From Oopsacas minuta (Eukaryota; Animalia; Porifera): a DNA stretch of 64,000 nt. A program made the position numbers and the translations under genes. The stretch is from the NCBI GenBank assembly GCA_024704765.1, contig JAKMXF010000188.1:669715-733714 (forward strand), in the 5' to 3' direction. Below the pieces are notes generated by a model. The model was not told where the DNA came from. It ran no database searches and saw nothing but the letters and a program-made list of their open reading frames with translations. Shown here piece by piece: positions 10,171 through 61,105 of this stretch (the stretch's first letter is position 1; each line of letters opens with the position of its first letter).

Positions 10171-11356
10171 CTCTAATAGCTTTGTAAATAACTTTATACG
10201 GATAAACAGGGATGTAGAATTCGATTTTGACATTTCAAAATGTCTAACAAGATTAGTAATAATACATTTTTCTTTCTTTGCTAAAATCGATATACGGATA
10301 AACAGGGACGTAATGTTTACCAAGATTAGTAGTAATACATTTTTCTTTCTTTGTTAAAATGGATATTTAGTAGAATAATTAATATTCGTAGTTTCAATAA
10401 TCCACTATAATTAATTTGGTAAATTTAAGACAGACGATAATTTGAGATTTTTACTACTTTGAATTGTCCAATTTATCTTCTATTTTTATGTTTTTAGCAA
10501 ATATGTTTGTCATGTATATTTTGAATTTTTTAATAATCTTCCCTTTCATTTAATCCTACCACTTAGTAAAACTGGAAGTTTCTAATAGTAATATTTCATT
10601 TTGATTTACCTAGTTTACTTATGTCGATTATTATTATTTCAGAAACAATCATTTGGTAAGAGTGTTCAATTTTCTACGGCTACTGTGCGAACACTTCGTA
10701 TACGCGACCCGAGCAGCGCAAGAAAGCGAAGCTTGCTTGTTTCAATAATTTCTGATTGGTCCTTAGCTGTCTCTGGCATAGCTCAGTGTATTATTTAATA
10801 GCAATTGTAACTAGTCAATCGGGTCGAGTAGAGTTTCATGTTTGACCGGTGGAAAACATTCAATATTGTGTAAGTATAGAAGCTGTTGTAAATACTCCCT
10901 GCCTCTATCATATGTATTTCCTAAGATATTTGGTGACTAAGGTAAAGTTTTGCACCTATGTATCGAGCTGACCGCCACAGTCCTATATAAATCCTTGAAA
11001 TTGTTTCATATTTTGGCGGGCTAATTCTTGGTTTCATTCATTATAAAGATTTTCAAGACTGTTAATGCATAATACAAGTGTAATTTGATGTTTGTAGCAC
11101 AATTTCCCATTCTTTTTTATTTGTAGGACTAATTGCAATCATATTTAAGACTGCCAGAAATGCTCTAATAAATTTAAGATATATATATATATGTGAAAAT
11201 ATTCAAAATACATTTGGGTACCAATCATAAATCATATTTTTGGAATATATATATTTTCACACCTCTTCATGTCAAGCAGTTCCGTTTCATAGAATAGGGA
11301 AGTATGATTTAAATCCATTACCATATTTATAATTCGTCTTAGCTTTCACACAACAA

Positions 11357-14300
11357 ATGGCTTCAGGTGATGTGTTCACGAATATGTTCGGTAACACCTT
11401 ACTACGAATTGAAGGTGGAGTAACTAAGGAGATCGAAACATCTACTCTAATCAAAGACGGAGTAATCGCACTCTACTTTTCTGCTCATTGGTGTCCCCCC
11501 TGTCGTACCTTCACTCCTACTCTAGGTGATTGGTACAAAAAACTAACTTCTGGAAGTTTGAAAGATAAACTCGAGATTGTCTTTCTCAGCTCTGATCAGA
11601 GTGAAGAAGAGTTTAAAGACTACTACTCTAGCATGCCCTGGTGTGCTCTCCCCTATTCAGACAGGGAGAAGAAGGTTGATATTTATCTGTACTGTCATTA
11701 GCTTTATTGATTGATATATCTATTTATTTCTTAGGCTGAGCTTTCTAAGAAATTCGGTATCAAAGGTATTCCTTCTCTCATATTCCTGAACGCACAGAAC
11801 GGGAAAATAATAACACGTGAGGGGAGAGAGGTTGTGAATGAGGACCCAGAGGGGGAACAGTTCCCCTGGAAGCCAAAGTCAATTTCTGAAGTCCTCTCTT
11901 GCCTGGAAGACAAACTTGTCGACAATAAGGGAGGACAGTATAAGCTCTCTGAGATACGAAAAGATAAATATCTAGCTCTTTATATTTCAGCTCATTGGGT
12001 GGGTAGCTATATGAAATATACTGGATCCCAGTTATAAGAGACAGTAGGTCTCCGTCTAGAATACATATTCCCCTCCGGGTATGAACTTTTCGATGCCCTG
12101 ACGTCATATTCATTAGGTTCTACTGCAGTGGTTTTCCAAATGTCTTGAATTTATGATGAATATATGATGTTAGGACGGGACGCTAGGGGCGTTTGAAAAA
12201 TAAATAGGCTTAGAGACGGGTTGCGATCAAAAGCTCCGGAACACTATTCTATTGTATATTGAATTTTTGATACGTAATATAATTCTACAGTGTCCTCCTT
12301 GTAAAGTATTCACTCCTAAGCTAGTGGAGGCCTACCAGAAGCATCAGGACAAAGGTTTTGAAGTAATTTTCATATCGTTTGACAGAGATGAAGAAAGTTT
12401 TAAAGATTATTTCGAAACCATGCCATGGAAATCTGCCAATTACGCTGATGCGAACAAACTCGGACCAAAGATAGCAAGGAGATTTGGAGTGAAGGGTAAA
12501 TATTCTCTAATTTGCTTGTTTGTTGATTATTATGTGTTTATCTTTATTCATATATACATAGGTATTCCTACTCTTGTGTTAATGGATAAAAATCTTGAAG
12601 TAATTAACCAGAACGCGAGATCTTTCATAGAGCATGATGAGAAGTTTGAGGTAATAATTCGTATTTATTATATGCTGAATGATTAGCATTGATACTATGC
12701 TATATGACTTTCTAATTACAATTTATCATATATAGTGGGTATTACTTATAAGAACATATCGGTTATAAGAATATATCGGTTATAAGAATATACTTTGATA
12801 TTCCCAAGGGTGTTATCATCAGCGATAACCACTAGGCCGGATCGAGAAAAGTATACATCGTCGCTTCAACTTCTACCTAAGGCAAAAGTTGCCTTTACTC
12901 TTTTCCAGGAAAATGCGAGACATAAATTTGAAAATATTTCGAGTTGACCCTTGCAGTTTTATATTTTTGCTGTGTCACTTTCGCAAACTTGACTTTAAAT
13001 TGTCCGAATTTTCTAATTCCTTTGACTTAGCCCCTATAGATATATTATTTGGTAATAGTAAGTCGCATATTTGCTTTCGAATGATGTATTAGGCTAATTT
13101 CCATGTCCAAAGGTACTCAAGTTGTCAATATATCTTTTGCATATTCTATCATACCCTAATAATATTATCCACCCCCTTTTTTTCCGAAGATTTGCAAATG
13201 CATAATTCTTACAAAAAATAGCTATATCCTCACCAAACTTAGTATAATTCTGTATCTAGATCCAAATTCATCAATAGATTACCACAAAGAAATTTTACCA
13301 ACTTTCCTTATCTCTTGCTCTTAACTTAGTTGCCATTTATCTAGCATGGAATTTATGGTCAATTATTATATCTAAATAAAAACTCACTCAAATGACTCAT
13401 ATTATAGAGTGATTATATTCCTATAATTTATGTAATTTTGAATATGGTAGGATACACGCTTAGTATTGTAGTATTTCATCCTGTTTTTGGTTATCCTGGA
13501 CCCATCCCAGAAAATCTACTCCCGATAAAACTAGATCTATACAATCATTATAGTATGCTTAGAAATGAAGATTCTAAATCAACTAGAGATGATATAGCGA
13601 AAGAATTAACTGAGGTATTAGTGCGTATCTATAATTTGGCTTCCATACCCACAAAATCAGAGCTCCAAATATATCAGTACATCATTTCTGATATTATCGA
13701 GAGAGCTAAATATTACAGAAAAGTATCCAAAACAAGCAATATCCTGACGGTATCCAGCCTATAATTCCGAATTCAATGTCTTGTTCGACGTCTCAAGTTG
13801 CAAATGCCAAATACAAGAAGAAAAAAGTTTTGCTCTCTCGATAATATCAGAAATGATGTACTGATATATTTGGAGCTCTGATTTTGTGGGTATGGAAGCC
13901 AAATTATAGATACGCACTAATACCTCAGTTAATTCTTTCGCTATATCATCTCTAGTTGATTTAGAATCTTCATTTCTAAGCATACTATAATGATTGTATA
14001 GATCTAGTTTTATCGGGAGTAGATTTTCTGGGATGGGTCCAGGATAACCAAAAACAGGATGAAATACTACAATACTAAGCGTGTATCCTACCATATTCAA
14101 AATTACATAAATTATAGGAATATAATCACTCTATAATATGAGTCATTTGAGTGAGTTTTTATTTAGATATAATAATTGACCATAAATTCCATGCTAGATA
14201 AATGGCAACTAAGTTAAGAGCAAGAGATAAGGAAAGTTGGTAAAATTTCTTTGTGGTAATCTATTGATGAATTTGGATCTAGATACAGAATTATACTAAG

Positions 14301-16326
14301 TTTGGTGAGGATATAGCTATTTTTTGTAAGAATTATGCATTTGCAAATCTTCGGAAAAAAAGGGGGTGGATAATATTATTAGGGTATGATAGAATATGCA
14401 AAAGATATATTGACAACTTGAGTACCTTTGGACATGGAAATTAGCCTAATACATCATTCGAAAGCAAATATGCGACTTACTATTACCAAATAATATATCT
14501 ATAGGGGCTAAGTCAAAGGAATTAGAAAATTCGGACAATTTAAAGTCAAGTTTGCGAAAGTGACACAGCAAAAATATAAAACTGCAAGGGTCAACTCGAA
14601 ATATTTTCAAATTTATGTCTCGCATTTTCCTGGAAAAGAGTAAAGGCAACTTTTGCCTTAGGTAGAAGTTGAAGCGACGATGTATACTTTTCTCGATCCG
14701 GCCTAATAACCACTGTATTGTCATTTCACTTCAACACTGATCATGAATGAATTAACAAATCCGGATACGTATTATACGGTATTGCTTTGAATAAGTGCCG
14801 GGGGTAGCACTACACGAAATAAGTAACCGCCAGAGCGCTTATTCAGAGCAATACGAAGGGCATTAGGATCGTACGATCACGATCGCGATACTTTTTTGAC
14901 GATCTGGCGACGATCGGCAACCATTGTTTTATTAAGGATCGGATGTAAGATCGCAATCCTTTTTTGCACAAAAATTTTCGATCATATTTTCGATCATTTT
15001 TGTACTTTGAATGCTACTATCATTAGCGTTTTGTATACTTAGGTTATTGTTCCAAATTTGTGTTCAACAATCAGTAATATTCGTTCGTAGAATGCGTTGA
15101 TTCTCCACCTAAGTTTCTTTTGGCATAAGAAATGATGTAACTATCAAAAATATATGTCTTGAATATTACACAAACGATCGGAAAAATGATCGAGATCGGG
15201 ATCGCGATCGTTTTGAGATAAGGATCTTGATCGGGATCGCGATCTTGTTTAACACGATCGACTAATGCCTTAGTAATACGTTACACTAATAACGCTATTT
15301 GTAATATACAATTGACAACAGCTATCTCGAACACAAAGAGCAGTTCAACTGTAATCCAAATATTATAAGTATAGGATGCTGATTTCTCTTTAGAGTTCGA
15401 GTTAGGGAAGTACGTATATCTGAACCCTGCATAGCAGTATTCCTTAATTTTATTTACTTATAGAATTTTCCATGGAGTGCTAATATCTGTACTACTCTCA
15501 ATTCTGAAAAGGATTTTGCTTATCTAGTTAGTCACCCAGCTGTTCTCTACACAGTATCAGGTGAGTAGTAGCAATAGACCATTTGGATCGATTCAAAAAA
15601 GGTAAAGTGTAATCTCGTTTGAGTAATTCCATCTTTCCCCAAAGGTTAACGCATGTTACCTCTATATCCCTATTGTCATGTCTACCTACCTACCTCCACC
15701 TCCTCTGCATTTAAGAATACATAATATATTCTCCAATCTTTAAAATTATAACTTTATTGAGTATTGGGCTACTGTTATTTATAGAGATTCAGCTCCACCC
15801 CCGCATCTGATTTAGCCTACTAATAATCAATATACTCAGTGTAATTCAGCTATTGGGTGTATAAGCTAGTTAAGAATACAATAGAGATGACGTCTAGAAT
15901 ATTATAATATTAAAATTGACATTTATATATTTTATGAATGAACCAATTTTCCCGTTGATTGTCACAAAATAAATAATTTTGTAATTAATCCTTCCTACCT
16001 TTCATACACATATTTATCAAACAGATGAATCGAAGTTTAACGAAGCTATGCAAATCCTGGATGCTGTCAGTAAGAAATTCATTGCTAACAAACCTCGGGA
16101 CGCAATAATCAATTTCTTCTGCTATGTCGATGACGAAAAGGCTAACAGTGCATGTAAGGAGTTCTTCCACAAGGGGTGTGGTGGTGTAGCAAATCAGGTG
16201 TTTATAATAGACCCTCAAGAGCAGATGAAGAACAAAGAACCTATCACAAAACTAGATGTGGACTCAATCTACACTCAAGCAATGTCGTACATTGAGGGAG
16301 AGCTCGATATGGTTAAAGTCGACTAA
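11357..16326 (+). CDS. NXN: Nucleoredoxin-like protein with tandem thioredoxin-fold (WCPPCR / WCPPCK) domains; at least 5 exons, one internal exon not located
   Basis: Exons 11357-11674 (MASGDV...[13 protein letters not shown]...[15 protein letters not shown]), 11735-11998 ([19 protein letters not shown]...[11 protein letters not shown]...YISAHW), 12291-12495 (CPPCKVFTP...[19 protein letters not shown]...), 12562-12650 ([16 protein letters not shown]...HDEKFE) and the terminal exon 16025-16326. The terminal exon resembles the nucleoredoxin C-terminal region: [17 protein letters not shown]...[11 protein letters not shown]. Order and spacing match vertebrate NXN. Exon 4 ends in phase 0 but the terminal exon needs phase 1, so at least one small exon is missing between 12651 and 16024. 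Confidence 0.72.
12833..14705. mobile_element. Foldback-type transposable element: two perfect 874-bp inverted arms (12833-13706, 13832-14705), a 125-bp unique spacer, and an 8-bp TSD ATAACCAC
   Basis: The arms are reverse-complement identical across all stretches checked. ORF pairs 12889-13092(+)/14446-14724(-) and 13438-13764(+)/13759-14100(-) translate identically. Arm termini are taggccggatcgag...ctcgatccggccta. The flanking direct repeat ataaccac sits at 12825-12832 and 14706-14713. Confidence 0.75.
14858..15269. mobile_element. Candidate non-autonomous DNA transposon / MITE with GATCG-rich subterminal repeats
   Basis: Imperfect TIRs ggcattag(-)gatcgt at 14858 and acgatcgactaatgcc ending at 15269. 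Both ends are packed with GATCG / CGATCGCGATC motifs. An adjacent 18-bp-stem hairpin lies at 14786-14858. No clear TSD was seen. Confidence 0.4.
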
Positions 16327-18097
16327 GTAAATTCTACCAAATATATATGTATGCGAGTGGTATTTCCTTTTAGTTAGCGGAGTGTATAGATATACTTTAT
16401 TTGAAGCTTATATTCTATCTAGTAGCTAGGCAACGTATAGTTTTTACCTAGCTTATATTTTCTGGAACTTTAATCATATATTAGACTTAGTGTTATCGTG
16501 TGTATTTAGGCCTTAATCTGTCTATTGATGAATTAGTTGAGAGTAGTTATGCATATATTTGGATATATTAGATTAAGGAAATTGTAGAAACTTCCAAATT
16601 GTATTGGAATTATAATATAAACAGTGGAAGTTATCAACTAATCATGTATTACCACCAGGGTTGCTGTGGGAATGTGATGGGAATGGGAATTGAAATTCCT
16701 TTCCCACGGCAACCCTGATTGCCACTTCTGTAGTATGTTCAAATATCATATGGTTTGTTTTCCGATAAATATATGACAAGCATTAAGTTAAACTGGATAT
16801 ACAGTGTTTTTGACTATTTCTTTACTAGCAACTCGTATTTTGATTTACGATATATTTGTGGCTTTGATTCATGTACTTTTTAGTAGTATGTATTTTTAAC
16901 AAAGTTTTTAAGCGATGCGACCTAATGTTGTGTTCAGAGGCTTAGCTAGGGTGCGACACATTAAATTACGTGTGCTCACCAAAATGAAATTGAAATGTAT
17001 TACGGATGCGGCCAGTAGCTCATATGACTGAGGTTGTTGTCAAAAATCCGGGAGGGGGCTTGTAAAATCAAAAGTGATAAATTCAGGCAAATATCCTGGA
17101 AATCGAGCATTTTCAGGGAAATTCTGGGGGAATACCCCCGGATTCCTTAGAGGGAACACTGGATGCGGAATTTCCGTACCTGCGCCACTTTGTTGCACCT
17201 ATTCCGCACTATCGTGTGGTCCTAGCTACGCCTCTGTCTCCACCTTCTGCTCCTAATTCCTAATATGTTACATAATTCTATAAATGAAAGACTCACAGCT
17301 TTATGTGGTATAGCGTGCCCTACGTAGAGCACAGATAGAGAAATTGAAGGTATAAATGATGCCACCAGTGACAATCTAGTATTAATTAGTATTGGAATAT
17401 CAATCAAACTGATAACTATTTTCTTATGAAAATATTCGAATTCAGATTCAATCGTGAGTTACTGGCTCCTAAACGTCCTTATTTACGTGTGTCTGCCTAA
17501 GTGAATTTCGGACCACAACAGTATTAAATGCTGAATTACAATTTTTACTGTACAGACTAATACAATTACATTGTATAGTGGCTCAGTTCAAAAATGGTTG
17601 ACTTAGTACAGCGGTTCCCAACCTGGGGTTCATGGACCCCTTGGTCTTTAGTGATCCACGGAAGATGCCAGGGGGTCCACAGAATGTGTTTGTTTTTACA
17701 ATTGGGCATAAATGCATAAAATTAGTTCTGGTGGAGTGTTTGTAATTTAATTAGAACTGGAATGTATTTGTATTTTCTTAGTTAAAATAGATATAGCATA
17801 ATTTCAATAATCCACTAAAATTAATTCGGTAAAATTTAAGTCGGCACCAGTCGGTGATTTTATGGTTCAAAATGATTCTTATTATTTTAGGCCAAAATCT
17901 ACCATATTTGGGTGTTTATGTGTTGGGATAACTACACTCATTATCCTTACATACAAATATCTATGTAATACTCTCCTGTGTTTGTTTATCACTTTATCAC
18001 TTGCCACTGAATTGTCACTCCACAAGTTTTGTTCAATTTATACCCAAAATTAAGATTGTTCTATCGCTCGTATATTAGCAAATTGACATTATTATCA

Positions 18098-60442: not shown

Positions 60443-61105
60443 TATTCATTTTAGCAAATTCTTAAAGAGTAAAATCTGTCTAATCATAATATATTGTGGT
60501 CTAACACATACTAGACTGACAATTGATACAATAAAATTTCTATAACATTTTGTAAATGCTTTGAATTACTGTGCATTATTAACTTATTTATCCTCTTAAG
60601 AATGATATATTACATCTCATTATCGAGATGTTTAGGATTATTCTTTGTAAGATAGCATCTTTAATACACTACATATACACGATAGCCTTCTTTAAAGTTA
60701 TATACAGTGGGCATTGCTTATAAGATCAGCGTTTATTAATAATATCGGTTATAAGTATATGTTCTAATAAGCGATAATAACTTATCTGGTTTTATTTATA
60801 GGGAAGTAGGGAGCACAAAATTATTGCTGCTATAGGATATTATTCTGAATTTCTTAAGAGGTACTTTCGGTTAGTACGTACTAATTATTGTTCCCAAAGG
60901 GTACGGTACGTCTTATCCGAGTTGGAGAGCTCTACAGTATAATAAATATTCTGCAAATGAGCAAAATTAATTTCGTGATGTCATAACTTGTAAGTTGTAA
61001 TGTATATTATAGCAGGCGTAGAAAACATCACGATTCATAGAGGAAACAAATAATTAATGTGTTCCTTGAACTTATCTGTAATCTATGTGTGCTTTCCAAT
61101 TATGT

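What the first reader, a model, noticed from the sequence alone, without database searches (positions are those of the whole stretch)
12651..16024. The nucleoredoxin-like gene appears to lack an exon exactly where the foldback and a GATCG-rich element sit
Exon 4 ends in phase 0 (…HDEKFE|gtaata). The terminal exon at 16025 needs one carried-over nucleotide and begins at the part homologous to the NXN C-terminal domain. The segment corresponding to vertebrate NXN FPWHPKPV… is not found as an open exon. The 3.4-kb intervening intron holds the 1.87-kb foldback and the 412-bp GATCG element. Either a small exon was missed by eye, or the insertions have disrupted or are displacing it.
Basis: partly seen in the sequence, partly recalled or inferred. 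Interest (0 to 1): 0.55.

Follow-up and report, generated by a model that had tools for sequence, protein, structure and literature searches.

The report
Missed small exon; nucleoredoxin gene intact
The sponge nucleoredoxin-like gene is not missing an exon: a 97-base exon at 15464-15560 was overlooked, the gene is intact and already annotated, and the two odd elements are transposon remnants sitting harmlessly in the intron.

Summary
Exon 4 ends in phase 0 at 12650. The last exon starts at 16025 and needs one carried base. A 1.87-kb foldback and a ~415-bp GATCG-rich element lie between them.

The "missing" FPW segment is present as an open exon at 15464-15560. It is 97 nt, with acceptor tttacttatag|AATTTTCCATGG and donor G|gtgagt, entering in phase 0 and leaving in phase 1. 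Including it gives a six-exon, 424-aa reading frame. That protein is 100% identical over its full length to GenBank KAI6655621.1, "Nucleoredoxin-like [Oopsacas minuta]" (glass sponge).

The exon carries the invariant F-P and near-invariant W of the family. Brachiopod and sea-urchin nucleoredoxin genes have the same exon series, 205 nt, 89 nt, then a 91-nt xFPW exon, with identical phases.

Both elements lie wholly inside intron 4 (2813 nt, or about 517 nt without them). They sit 182 nt from the donor and 192 nt from the acceptor.

The foldback has 878-nt arms, a 117-nt loop and a perfect 8-bp target-site duplication, ATAACCAC. It is a palindromic, non-autonomous derivative of the 5' end of a DDE transposon that encodes a ~725-aa protein.

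Verdict: the exon was missed by eye. The finding is ordinary and of low interest.

The parts
11357..11674 (+). NXN-like exon 1 (ATG; aa 1-106; first WCPPC tryparedoxin-like domain)
   Evidence: Exact spliced mapping of KAI6655621.1 onto the window; Pfam Thioredoxin_8 hit
11735..11998 (+). Exon 2 (aa 107-194; phase 0 in, phase 0 out; contains the first FPW, aa 149-151)
12291..12495 (+). Exon 3 (205 nt; starts CPPC; phase 0 in, phase 1 out). Same length and phases as in the Lingula and Diadema genes
12562..12650 (+). Exon 4 (89 nt; GIPTLV...HDEKFE; ends in phase 0; donor gtaata). Same length and phases as in the Lingula and Diadema genes
12651..15463 (+). Intron 4, 2813 nt. It is enlarged by two transposon insertions and would be about 517 nt without them
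   Evidence: the mean O. minuta intron is 341 bp (PMC10280926)
12825..12832 (.). Left copy of the 8-bp target-site duplication ATAACCAC
12833..14705 (.). Foldback transposon derivative: arms 12833-13710 and 13828-14705 (878 nt, one mismatch at 13707), loop 13711-13827, termini TAGGCCGG.../...CCGGCCTA. Each arm holds a ~365-nt TIR, the 5'UTR and the first ~105 codons of a transposase gene
14706..14713 (.). Right copy of the 8-bp target-site duplication ATAACCAC
14857..15271 (.). GATCG-rich element. Its short terminal inverted repeat is (A)AGGGCATTAG / CTAATGCCTT. Two GATCG/CGATC clusters (14867-14991 and 15175-15256) flank an AT-rich core, and an internal inverted repeat pairs 14978-15004 with 15167-15193. 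MITE-like; family not identified; boundaries approximate
15464..15560 (+).
15561..16024 (+). Intron 5 (464 nt)
16025..16326 (+). Exon 6 (terminal; phase 1 in; [10 protein letters not shown]...MVKVD; stop codon 16324-16326)

Best explanation
The window comes from the glass sponge Oopsacas minuta. It carries an intact six-exon nucleoredoxin-like gene at 11357-16326 on the + strand.

It encodes the FPW cap of the second tryparedoxin-like domain and the start of the C-terminal domain. Past FPW it has diverged from the vertebrate FPWHPKPV sequence, and that is why it was missed by eye.

The interval 12651-16024 is therefore two introns, not one. Intron 4 is 2813 nt and intron 5 is 464 nt.

Intron 4 has been enlarged by two non-autonomous DNA-transposon insertions that touch neither splice site.

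1. The first is a 1873-bp palindromic derivative of the 5' end of a DDE transposon, flanked by a perfect 8-bp target-site duplication. I infer that it formed by fold-back template switching at a short internal inverted repeat of the parent element.
2. The second is a ~415-bp GATCG-rich, MITE-like element.

Shown here: the exon, the frame, identity to the deposited protein, conserved exon structure, the anatomy of the transposon remnants and the target-site duplication. Inferred: normal splicing in vivo, and how the palindrome arose.
For: - Frame: splicing 12650^15464 and 15560^16025 gives a 1275-nt ORF with no stops. Leaving the exon out puts the last exon out of frame.
- Database match: the 424-aa product is 100% identical over 100% of its length to P0001 = KAI6655621.1 / A0AAV7K415, 'Nucleoredoxin-like [Oopsacas minuta]'. 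That annotation was made with BRAKER/Augustus using TopHat-mapped RNA-seq, with introns allowed up to 5000 nt (PMC10280926).
- Conservation: among 15 NXN-family sequences, F294 and P295 are invariant and W296 is >=90% conserved. All three are encoded by this exon.
- Exon structure: exact spliced mapping gives 205-nt, 89-nt and 91-nt (xFPW, phase 0 to 1) exons in Lingula (L001) and Diadema (L002). Oopsacas has 205, 89 and 97 nt with the same phases.
- Uniqueness: of 72 frame-restoring open AG..GT segments in the interval, only those starting at acceptor 15464 contain FPW. Only the 97-nt version has a consensus GTGAGT donor.
- Foldback: arms, loop and the 8-bp duplication ATAACCAC are. The arm ORF is 75% identical to residues 1-92 of a 725-aa protein. 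A 3.05-kb relative has ~360-nt TIRs and a degenerate 8-bp duplication.
Against: - I saw no transcript reads. Support for splicing comes from an RNA-seq-guided gene prediction, not from junction counts.
- Plain tblastn of 13 orthologues against 12651-16024 gives nothing significant (best E 0.66). The NFPW word at 15464 recurs in 8 of the 13 queries, in the 5 clearest only as the bare NFPW(S/T) word, at E 3.6-7.4. Sequence similarity of the exon alone would not establish it.
- A perfect 878-nt hairpin in the pre-mRNA could in principle impair splicing. That was not tested.
Confidence: 0.95

Rival explanations
1. The transposon insertions have disrupted the gene: the FPW exon is lost, displaced or no longer used, and the locus is a pseudogene or makes a truncated protein.
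For: Intron 4 is about 8 times the genome's mean intron size. It contains a long perfect hairpin. tblastn with orthologues finds no significant match in the interval.
Against: The exon is present and open, with consensus splice sites and the right phases. The full ORF equals the deposited protein. The exon structure is conserved across phyla. Both insertions lie at least 182 nt from either splice site. No stop or frameshift occurs in any exon.
Confidence: 0.02
2. The exon is real, but the intronic foldback or the MITE-like element causes partial exon-5 skipping or intron retention. Some transcripts would then be frameshifted and degraded, making the insertion a hypomorphic or regulatory allele.
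For: Skipping exon 5 shifts the frame of exon 6. The 878-nt arms would form a very stable intramolecular duplex in the pre-mRNA (inferred). The perfect target-site duplication and near-identical arms suggest a recent insertion that may not yet have been tested by selection.
Against: No data here show aberrant splicing. The annotation pipeline recovered the full model. The hairpin closes on itself and leaves the donor, branch region and acceptor free.
Confidence: 0.08
3. The 1.87-kb perfect palindrome is an assembly artefact, for example a PacBio missed-adapter or chimeric read, and not a real insertion.
For: The arms are 877/878 identical. The published assembly used PacBio together with Illumina data.
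Against: The palindrome is flanked by a perfect 8-bp direct duplication and by unique intron sequence on both sides. It has a 117-nt non-palindromic loop that is colinear with related elements elsewhere. It begins exactly at the TIR terminus shared with those elements. It lies inside a 733,714-bp contig. An adapter artefact would produce none of these.
Confidence: 0.04

Closest known systems
Animal nucleoredoxin (NXN) genes, e.g. Lingula anatina nucleoredoxin (P0025) and Diadema antillarum nucleoredoxin-like (P0074)
   Same: Two tandem tryparedoxin-like Thioredoxin_8 domains, each ending in FPW, followed by a C-terminal domain. Overall identity is 35-36%. The intron positions and phases around the second domain are identical: a 205-nt exon, an 89-nt exon, then a small xFPW exon running from phase 0 to phase 1.
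   Different: The sponge exon is 97 nt instead of 91 nt. After FPW it reads [10 protein letters not shown] where orthologues have the usual xPKPVxxL, so it is not recognisable from the vertebrate motif. The C-terminal domain is a single exon in the sponge and two exons in Lingula and Diadema. Intron 4 carries two transposon insertions.
Tryparedoxins (e.g. PDB 1O73, 6GXG)
   Same: The closest solved relatives of each thioredoxin-like repeat, at E about 3e-34. The match to repeat 1 runs through its FPW, which shows that FPW is the C-terminal end of the fold.
   Different: Tryparedoxins are single-domain proteins of about 145 aa. The sponge protein has two such domains plus a C-terminal domain.
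Foldback or long-TIR deletion derivatives of cut-and-paste DNA transposons in the hAT / Mutator / P group
   Same: Terminal inverted repeats, an 8-bp target-site duplication, no intact transposase, and derivation from an autonomous element. The parent protein has an RNase-H-like DDE fold closest to Hermes, ISCth4 and the P-element transposase.
   Different: The arms (878 nt) extend well past the parental TIR (~360 nt) into the 5'UTR and the first ~105 codons. The palindrome is therefore secondary, not the family's native TIR. The parent protein family has no Pfam model and no PDB sequence match, so its superfamily is unresolved.
Large palindromes formed from short inverted repeats by fold-back or template switching (ODIRA and homology-mediated end-capping models; PMC4689423, PMC10766183, PMC3834830)
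   Same: The junction at 13828-13844 lies on a short imperfect inverted-repeat partner of 13694-13710, which is also present in related elements. The single arm mismatch carries the base of the parental forward sequence.
   Different: Here the event lies inside a 3-kb transposon rather than at a chromosomal amplicon. The mechanism is inferred from sequence only.

Membership tests
Nucleoredoxin (NXN) family | Tandem tryparedoxin-like thioredoxin-fold domains with the WCPPC active-site motif | tested here: met
   Pfam Thioredoxin_8 E 1.2e-55 with 2 stretches. SAHWCPPC at aa 42-49 and 191-198; S, A, H, W, both Cys and the second Pro are invariant in the alignment, and the first Pro is >=90% conserved.
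Nucleoredoxin (NXN) family | FPW motif closing the second thioredoxin-like domain, followed by a C-terminal domain | tested here: met
   F294 and P295 are invariant and W296 is >=90% conserved, all encoded by exon 5. The alignment continues to the C-terminus, with F355 and L418 invariant.
Nucleoredoxin (NXN) family | Orthologous gene structure (shared intron positions and phases) | tested here: met
   Exons of 205 / 89 / 97 nt with phases 0-1, 1-0, 0-1, against 205 / 89 / 91 nt with the same phases in Lingula and Diadema.
Nucleoredoxin (NXN) family | Disulfide reductase activity and expression of the full-length mRNA | not testable with these tools
   No transcript reads or biochemistry are available. 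The only support is the RNA-seq-guided annotation.
Class II (TIR, cut-and-paste) DNA transposon, non-autonomous derivative (the foldback) | Terminal inverted repeats | tested here: met
   878-nt arms, 877/878 complementary. The termini TAGGCCGG are shared with relatives.
Class II (TIR, cut-and-paste) DNA transposon, non-autonomous derivative (the foldback) | Target-site duplication of fixed length | tested here: met
   A perfect 8-bp ATAACCAC on both sides. The relative in L005 has CTTTTTAC / CTGATTAC, matching at 6 of 8 positions.
Class II (TIR, cut-and-paste) DNA transposon, non-autonomous derivative (the foldback) | Related autonomous element encoding a DDE transposase; multiple dispersed copies | tested here: met
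   The arm ORF matches residues 1-92 of the 725-aa P0134, and 13 related ORFs lie on different contigs. O. minuta proteins LOD99_2187 and LOD99_9496 are relatives. The fold matches transposases.
hAT superfamily (considered for the foldback's parent) | hAT transposase domains (hAT C-terminal dimerisation domain) and short TIRs | tested here: inconclusive
MITE (considered for the GATCG element) | TIRs, a target-site duplication and many copies | tested here: inconclusive
   Only a short 8-10-nt terminal inverted repeat plus an internal 27-nt inverted repeat. I could not identify an unambiguous duplication. There is no second copy in the window or in L003-L005. The genome-wide copy number is not testable here.

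The most novel reading that the evidence does not exclude
The foldback may be a very recent product of a still-active DDE transposon lineage that is widespread in animals and formally undescribed. The evidence for recency is the perfect duplication and arms identical except at the junction. The lineage encodes a ~725-750-aa protein with no Pfam model, a fold in the hAT/Mutator/P group, ~360-nt TIRs and an 8-bp duplication. Its 878-bp perfect hairpin inside the NXN pre-mRNA could act as a source of double-stranded RNA, through small RNAs or editing, that modulates the host gene.
Probability: 0.1. Interest if true: 0.35.

Novelty: already known. Interest (0 to 1): 0.08.

Why it matters
It matters little beyond quality control. 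The apparent anomaly disappears once the 97-nt exon is recognised, and the resulting gene model is already in GenBank as KAI6655621.1. Three points are still useful:

- It is a clean example of deeply conserved intron positions in nucleoredoxin genes, shared between a sponge and bilaterians.
- It shows that this compact genome's rare long introns can be explained by recent transposon insertions.
- The foldback is a tidy natural example of a large palindrome seeded by a short inverted repeat within a transposon. Its transposase family currently has no Pfam annotation.

Tried and rejected
I ran 13 NXN orthologues against 12651-16024 in all frames. Nothing was significant (best E 0.66), and only the NFPW word at 15464 recurred. 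The exon is too short and too diverged for this test, so frame and phase, conserved exon structure and the database identity carried the argument instead.
- **Locating the deposited gene.** The look-up of encoding contigs for P0001 returned no record, so I could not read the deposited exon coordinates directly. I re-derived them by exact spliced mapping.
- **Intron-hosted RNAs.** Rfam and tRNA scans of 10800-17300 found nothing inside the introns.
- **ORFs in the elements.** Pfam scans of the foldback and GATCG-element ORFs found nothing.
- **'Mutator' neighbours.** The PF20700 'Mutator' genes next to related copies in L003 and L005 lie outside the element boundaries, so they are not evidence for its superfamily.
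- **GATCG element boundaries.** I looked for a target-site duplication and for further copies. None were convincing.
- **Paralogues.** I checked the window for additional NXN paralogues and found none.
Full report

The sequence is eukaryotic with GT-AG introns. The + strand between 11357 and 16326 encodes a nucleoredoxin-like protein.

- Exon 4 (12562-12650) ends in phase 0 with ...HDEKFE followed by gtaata.
- The last coding exon begins at 16025 after ...tcaaacag and needs one carried-over nucleotide. Joining 12650 directly to 16025 throws it out of frame.
- Between them lies a foldback at 12833-14705. Its arms are 878 nt and differ at a single position, 13707. The loop is 117 nt.
- There is also a GATCG-rich stretch at about 14857-15271. 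It holds 13 of the window's 31 GATCG pentamers, against 0.2 expected from its share of the length.

All of these statements are correct.

**The exon that was missed**

A six-frame listing of the interval shows an open stretch at 15464-15565 reading [34 protein letters not shown]. A polypyrimidine-rich acceptor precedes it (ccttaattttatttacttatAG|, 75% pyrimidine over the 20 bases that end 3 nt before the exon). A consensus donor follows after base 15560 (G|GTGAGT).

The exon 15464-15560 is 97 nt. It enters in phase 0 and leaves in phase 1. These are exactly the phases the neighbours require.

The six exons are 11357-11674, 11735-11998, 12291-12495, 12562-12650, 15464-15560 and 16025-16326. Together they give a 1275-nt ORF of 424 codons with no internal stop.

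**Independent support**

- **Database identity.** The 424-aa product is 100% identical over 100% of its length to a database protein: GenBank KAI6655621.1, UniProt A0AAV7K415, "Nucleoredoxin-like [Oopsacas minuta]", on a 733,714-bp contig. The window is therefore from the glass sponge Oopsacas minuta. That annotation came from BRAKER/Augustus with TopHat-mapped RNA-seq and introns allowed up to 5 kb (PMC10280926).
- **Residue conservation.** In an alignment with 13 NXN-family proteins from other organisms, F294 and P295 are invariant and W296 is conserved in at least 90%. All three are encoded by the 97-nt exon.
- **Role of FPW.** The same motif closes the first thioredoxin-like repeat (aa 149-151). 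There it marks the C-terminal end of the tryparedoxin fold, as the matches to solved tryparedoxins show.
- **Exon structure in other phyla.** I mapped the Lingula (brachiopod) and Diadema (sea urchin) proteins exactly onto their genomic loci. Both have a 205-nt exon beginning CPPC, an 89-nt exon beginning GIP, and then a 91-nt exon beginning D/EFPW that runs from phase 0 to phase 1. Oopsacas has 205, 89 and 97 nt with the same phases.

This intron-exon architecture therefore predates the sponge-bilaterian split, and the sponge gene retains it.

**Caveats**

tblastn of 13 orthologues against 12651-16024 gave no significant hit (best E 0.66). The NFPW word at 15464 recurred in 8 of the 13 queries, in the 5 clearest only as the bare NFPW(S/T) word, at E 3.6-7.4. 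After FPW the sponge reads [10 protein letters not shown] where orthologues read xPKPVxxL.

Frame closure alone is also weak. The interval contains 72 open AG..GT segments of 20-600 nt that would restore the frame. Only those starting at acceptor 15464 contain FPW, and only the 97-nt version has a consensus donor and matches the orthologous exon length.

I saw no transcript reads, so in vivo splicing is inferred from the RNA-seq-guided annotation.

**What the intron really holds: the foldback**

The interval is two introns. Intron 4 is 12651-15463 (2813 nt) and intron 5 is 15561-16024 (464 nt). The gene's other introns are 60, 292 and 66 nt, and the genome mean is 341 bp. Removing the two elements leaves about 517 nt for intron 4.

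The foldback is a genuine transposon insertion. It starts TAGGCCGG... and ends ...CCGGCCTA. A perfect 8-bp direct duplication, ATAACCAC, flanks it at 12825-12832 and 14706-14713.

Each arm contains an ORF. From its methionine, that ORF is 75% identical to residues 1-92 of a 725-aa protein, P0134.

Related DNA copies at 75-87% identity occur on other contigs. One of them is L005:5389-8439, about 3.05 kb long. It has ~360-nt TIRs that are 93-96% complementary, a degenerate 8-bp duplication (CTTTTTAC / CTGATTAC), and frameshifted remains of the whole ORF.

The window's arms therefore consist of the parental TIR (~365 nt), the 5'UTR and the first ~105 codons, mirrored.

Parental-type sequence runs colinearly through the 117-nt loop and up to 13844. 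The junction 17-mer at 13828-13844, TTTTGCTCTCTCGATAA, is an imperfect inverted partner of 13694-13710. The relatives have it too (L004: TTTTGCTCTTTAGATAA). The only arm mismatch carries the parental forward base.

The simplest reading is that a nascent strand folded back at this short inverted repeat and copied itself. That would make a palindromic, internally deleted, non-autonomous element. Comparable short-inverted-repeat-seeded palindromes are described in PMC4689423, PMC10766183 and PMC3834830. This step is inference.

**The parent transposase family**

The ~725-750-aa family occurs in O. minuta itself (LOD99_2187, LOD99_9496) and in moths, aphids, a barnacle and a snail. It has no Pfam match even at E<=10 and no PDB sequence match.

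An AlphaFold model (pLDDT 84.9) matches DDE transposases:

| Search | Top matches |
|---|---|
| Foldseek | ISCth4 E 3.5e-5; P element E 5.6e-5 |

So it is a transposase of the hAT/Mutator/P group. The superfamily is unresolved.

**The GATCG element**

This ~415-bp element has a short terminal inverted repeat, (A)AGGGCATTAG...CTAATGCCTT. Two clusters of GATCG/CGATC motifs, at 14867-14991 and 15175-15256, sit around an AT-rich core. An internal 27-nt inverted repeat pairs 14978-15004 with 15167-15193.

This is the layout of a MITE with subterminal binding-site repeats. I found no convincing target-site duplication, no second copy in the window or in the fetched loci, and no coding capacity. Its family is unknown.

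No Rfam family or tRNA lies in either intron.

**How it works and what follows**

The gene is read as six exons. Both insertions are removed with intron 4. The foldback begins 182 nt after the donor, and the GATCG element ends 192 nt before the acceptor. Nothing in the sequence indicates disruption.

The remaining uncertainty is quantitative: whether a perfect 878-bp intramolecular duplex in the pre-mRNA lowers splicing efficiency or feeds small-RNA or editing pathways. That needs RNA data.

**Comparison with what is known, and verdict**

The gene meets every NXN feature I could test: domain composition, WCPPC motifs, the FPW cap, alignment through the C-terminal domain, and orthologous intron positions. 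It is already annotated.

The claimed anomaly, a missing exon, is not real.

The transposon details are a minor by-product: a new palindromic member of a known kind of element. Interest is low at 0.08. The gene model is already known.

Noticed in passing
window 16656-16717 (+), about 330 nt downstream of the NXN stop codon: A 62-nt near-perfect hairpin (CAGGGTTGCTGTGGGAA ... TTCCCACGGCAACCCTG). MFE is -38.9 kcal/mol for the 96-nt stretch 16640-16735 that was folded, z = -4.3, and no shuffle of 200 folds as well. The only Rfam match is a sub-threshold mir-988 hit (24 bits against a gathering score of 72, E 0.2). It is single-copy in the window. It may lie in the NXN 3'UTR and could be miRNA-like or a tiny palindromic repeat.
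   Followed up: partly
window 13444-13761 (arm ORF) and relatives P0134, P0135, P0185; L005:5389-8439: The foldback derives from a transposon whose ~725-750-aa protein is widespread in animals: Oopsacas, Lepidoptera, aphids, a barnacle and a snail. It has no Pfam domain and no PDB sequence match. The AlphaFold model (pLDDT 84.9) is closest to the Hermes, ISCth4 and P-element transposases. It may be an unnamed lineage of the hAT/Mutator/P group with ~360-nt TIRs and an 8-bp target-site duplication.
   Followed up: partly
window 13694-13710 and 13828-13844: A short imperfect inverted repeat sits at the inner ends of the foldback arms and is also present in related elements. The single arm mismatch (13707/13831) carries the parental forward base. 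This is the signature of fold-back template switching as the origin of the palindrome.
   Followed up: yes
window 12738-12800 and 60705-60760: A short dispersed repeat about 80% identical between the two sites, CAGTGGG(T/C)ATT(A/G)CTTATAAGA...ATATCGGTTATAAG. The intron-4 copy includes a 17-nt tandem duplication (TTATAAGAAYATATCGG x2) just upstream of the foldback insertion site. It is probably the remnant of another small transposon.
   Followed up: partly
window 14779-14854: A small hairpin between the foldback and the GATCG element, with 20-nt arms 90% complementary and a 36-nt loop (GTATTGCTTTGAATAAGTGC ... GCGCTTATTCAGAGCAATAC). It is unexplained. It could belong to the GATCG element's left end or be a separate remnant.
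   Followed up: no
L003 and L005 (ENA assemblies ERZ20067936, ERZ25069837) and L004 (GCA_044233465.1): Copies of the foldback's parent element at 75-87% identity sit in assemblies of unidentified origin. In L003 and L005 they lie next to genes hitting Pfam PF20700 (Mutator), so these are transposon-rich neighbourhoods. The source organisms were not identified.
   Followed up: no
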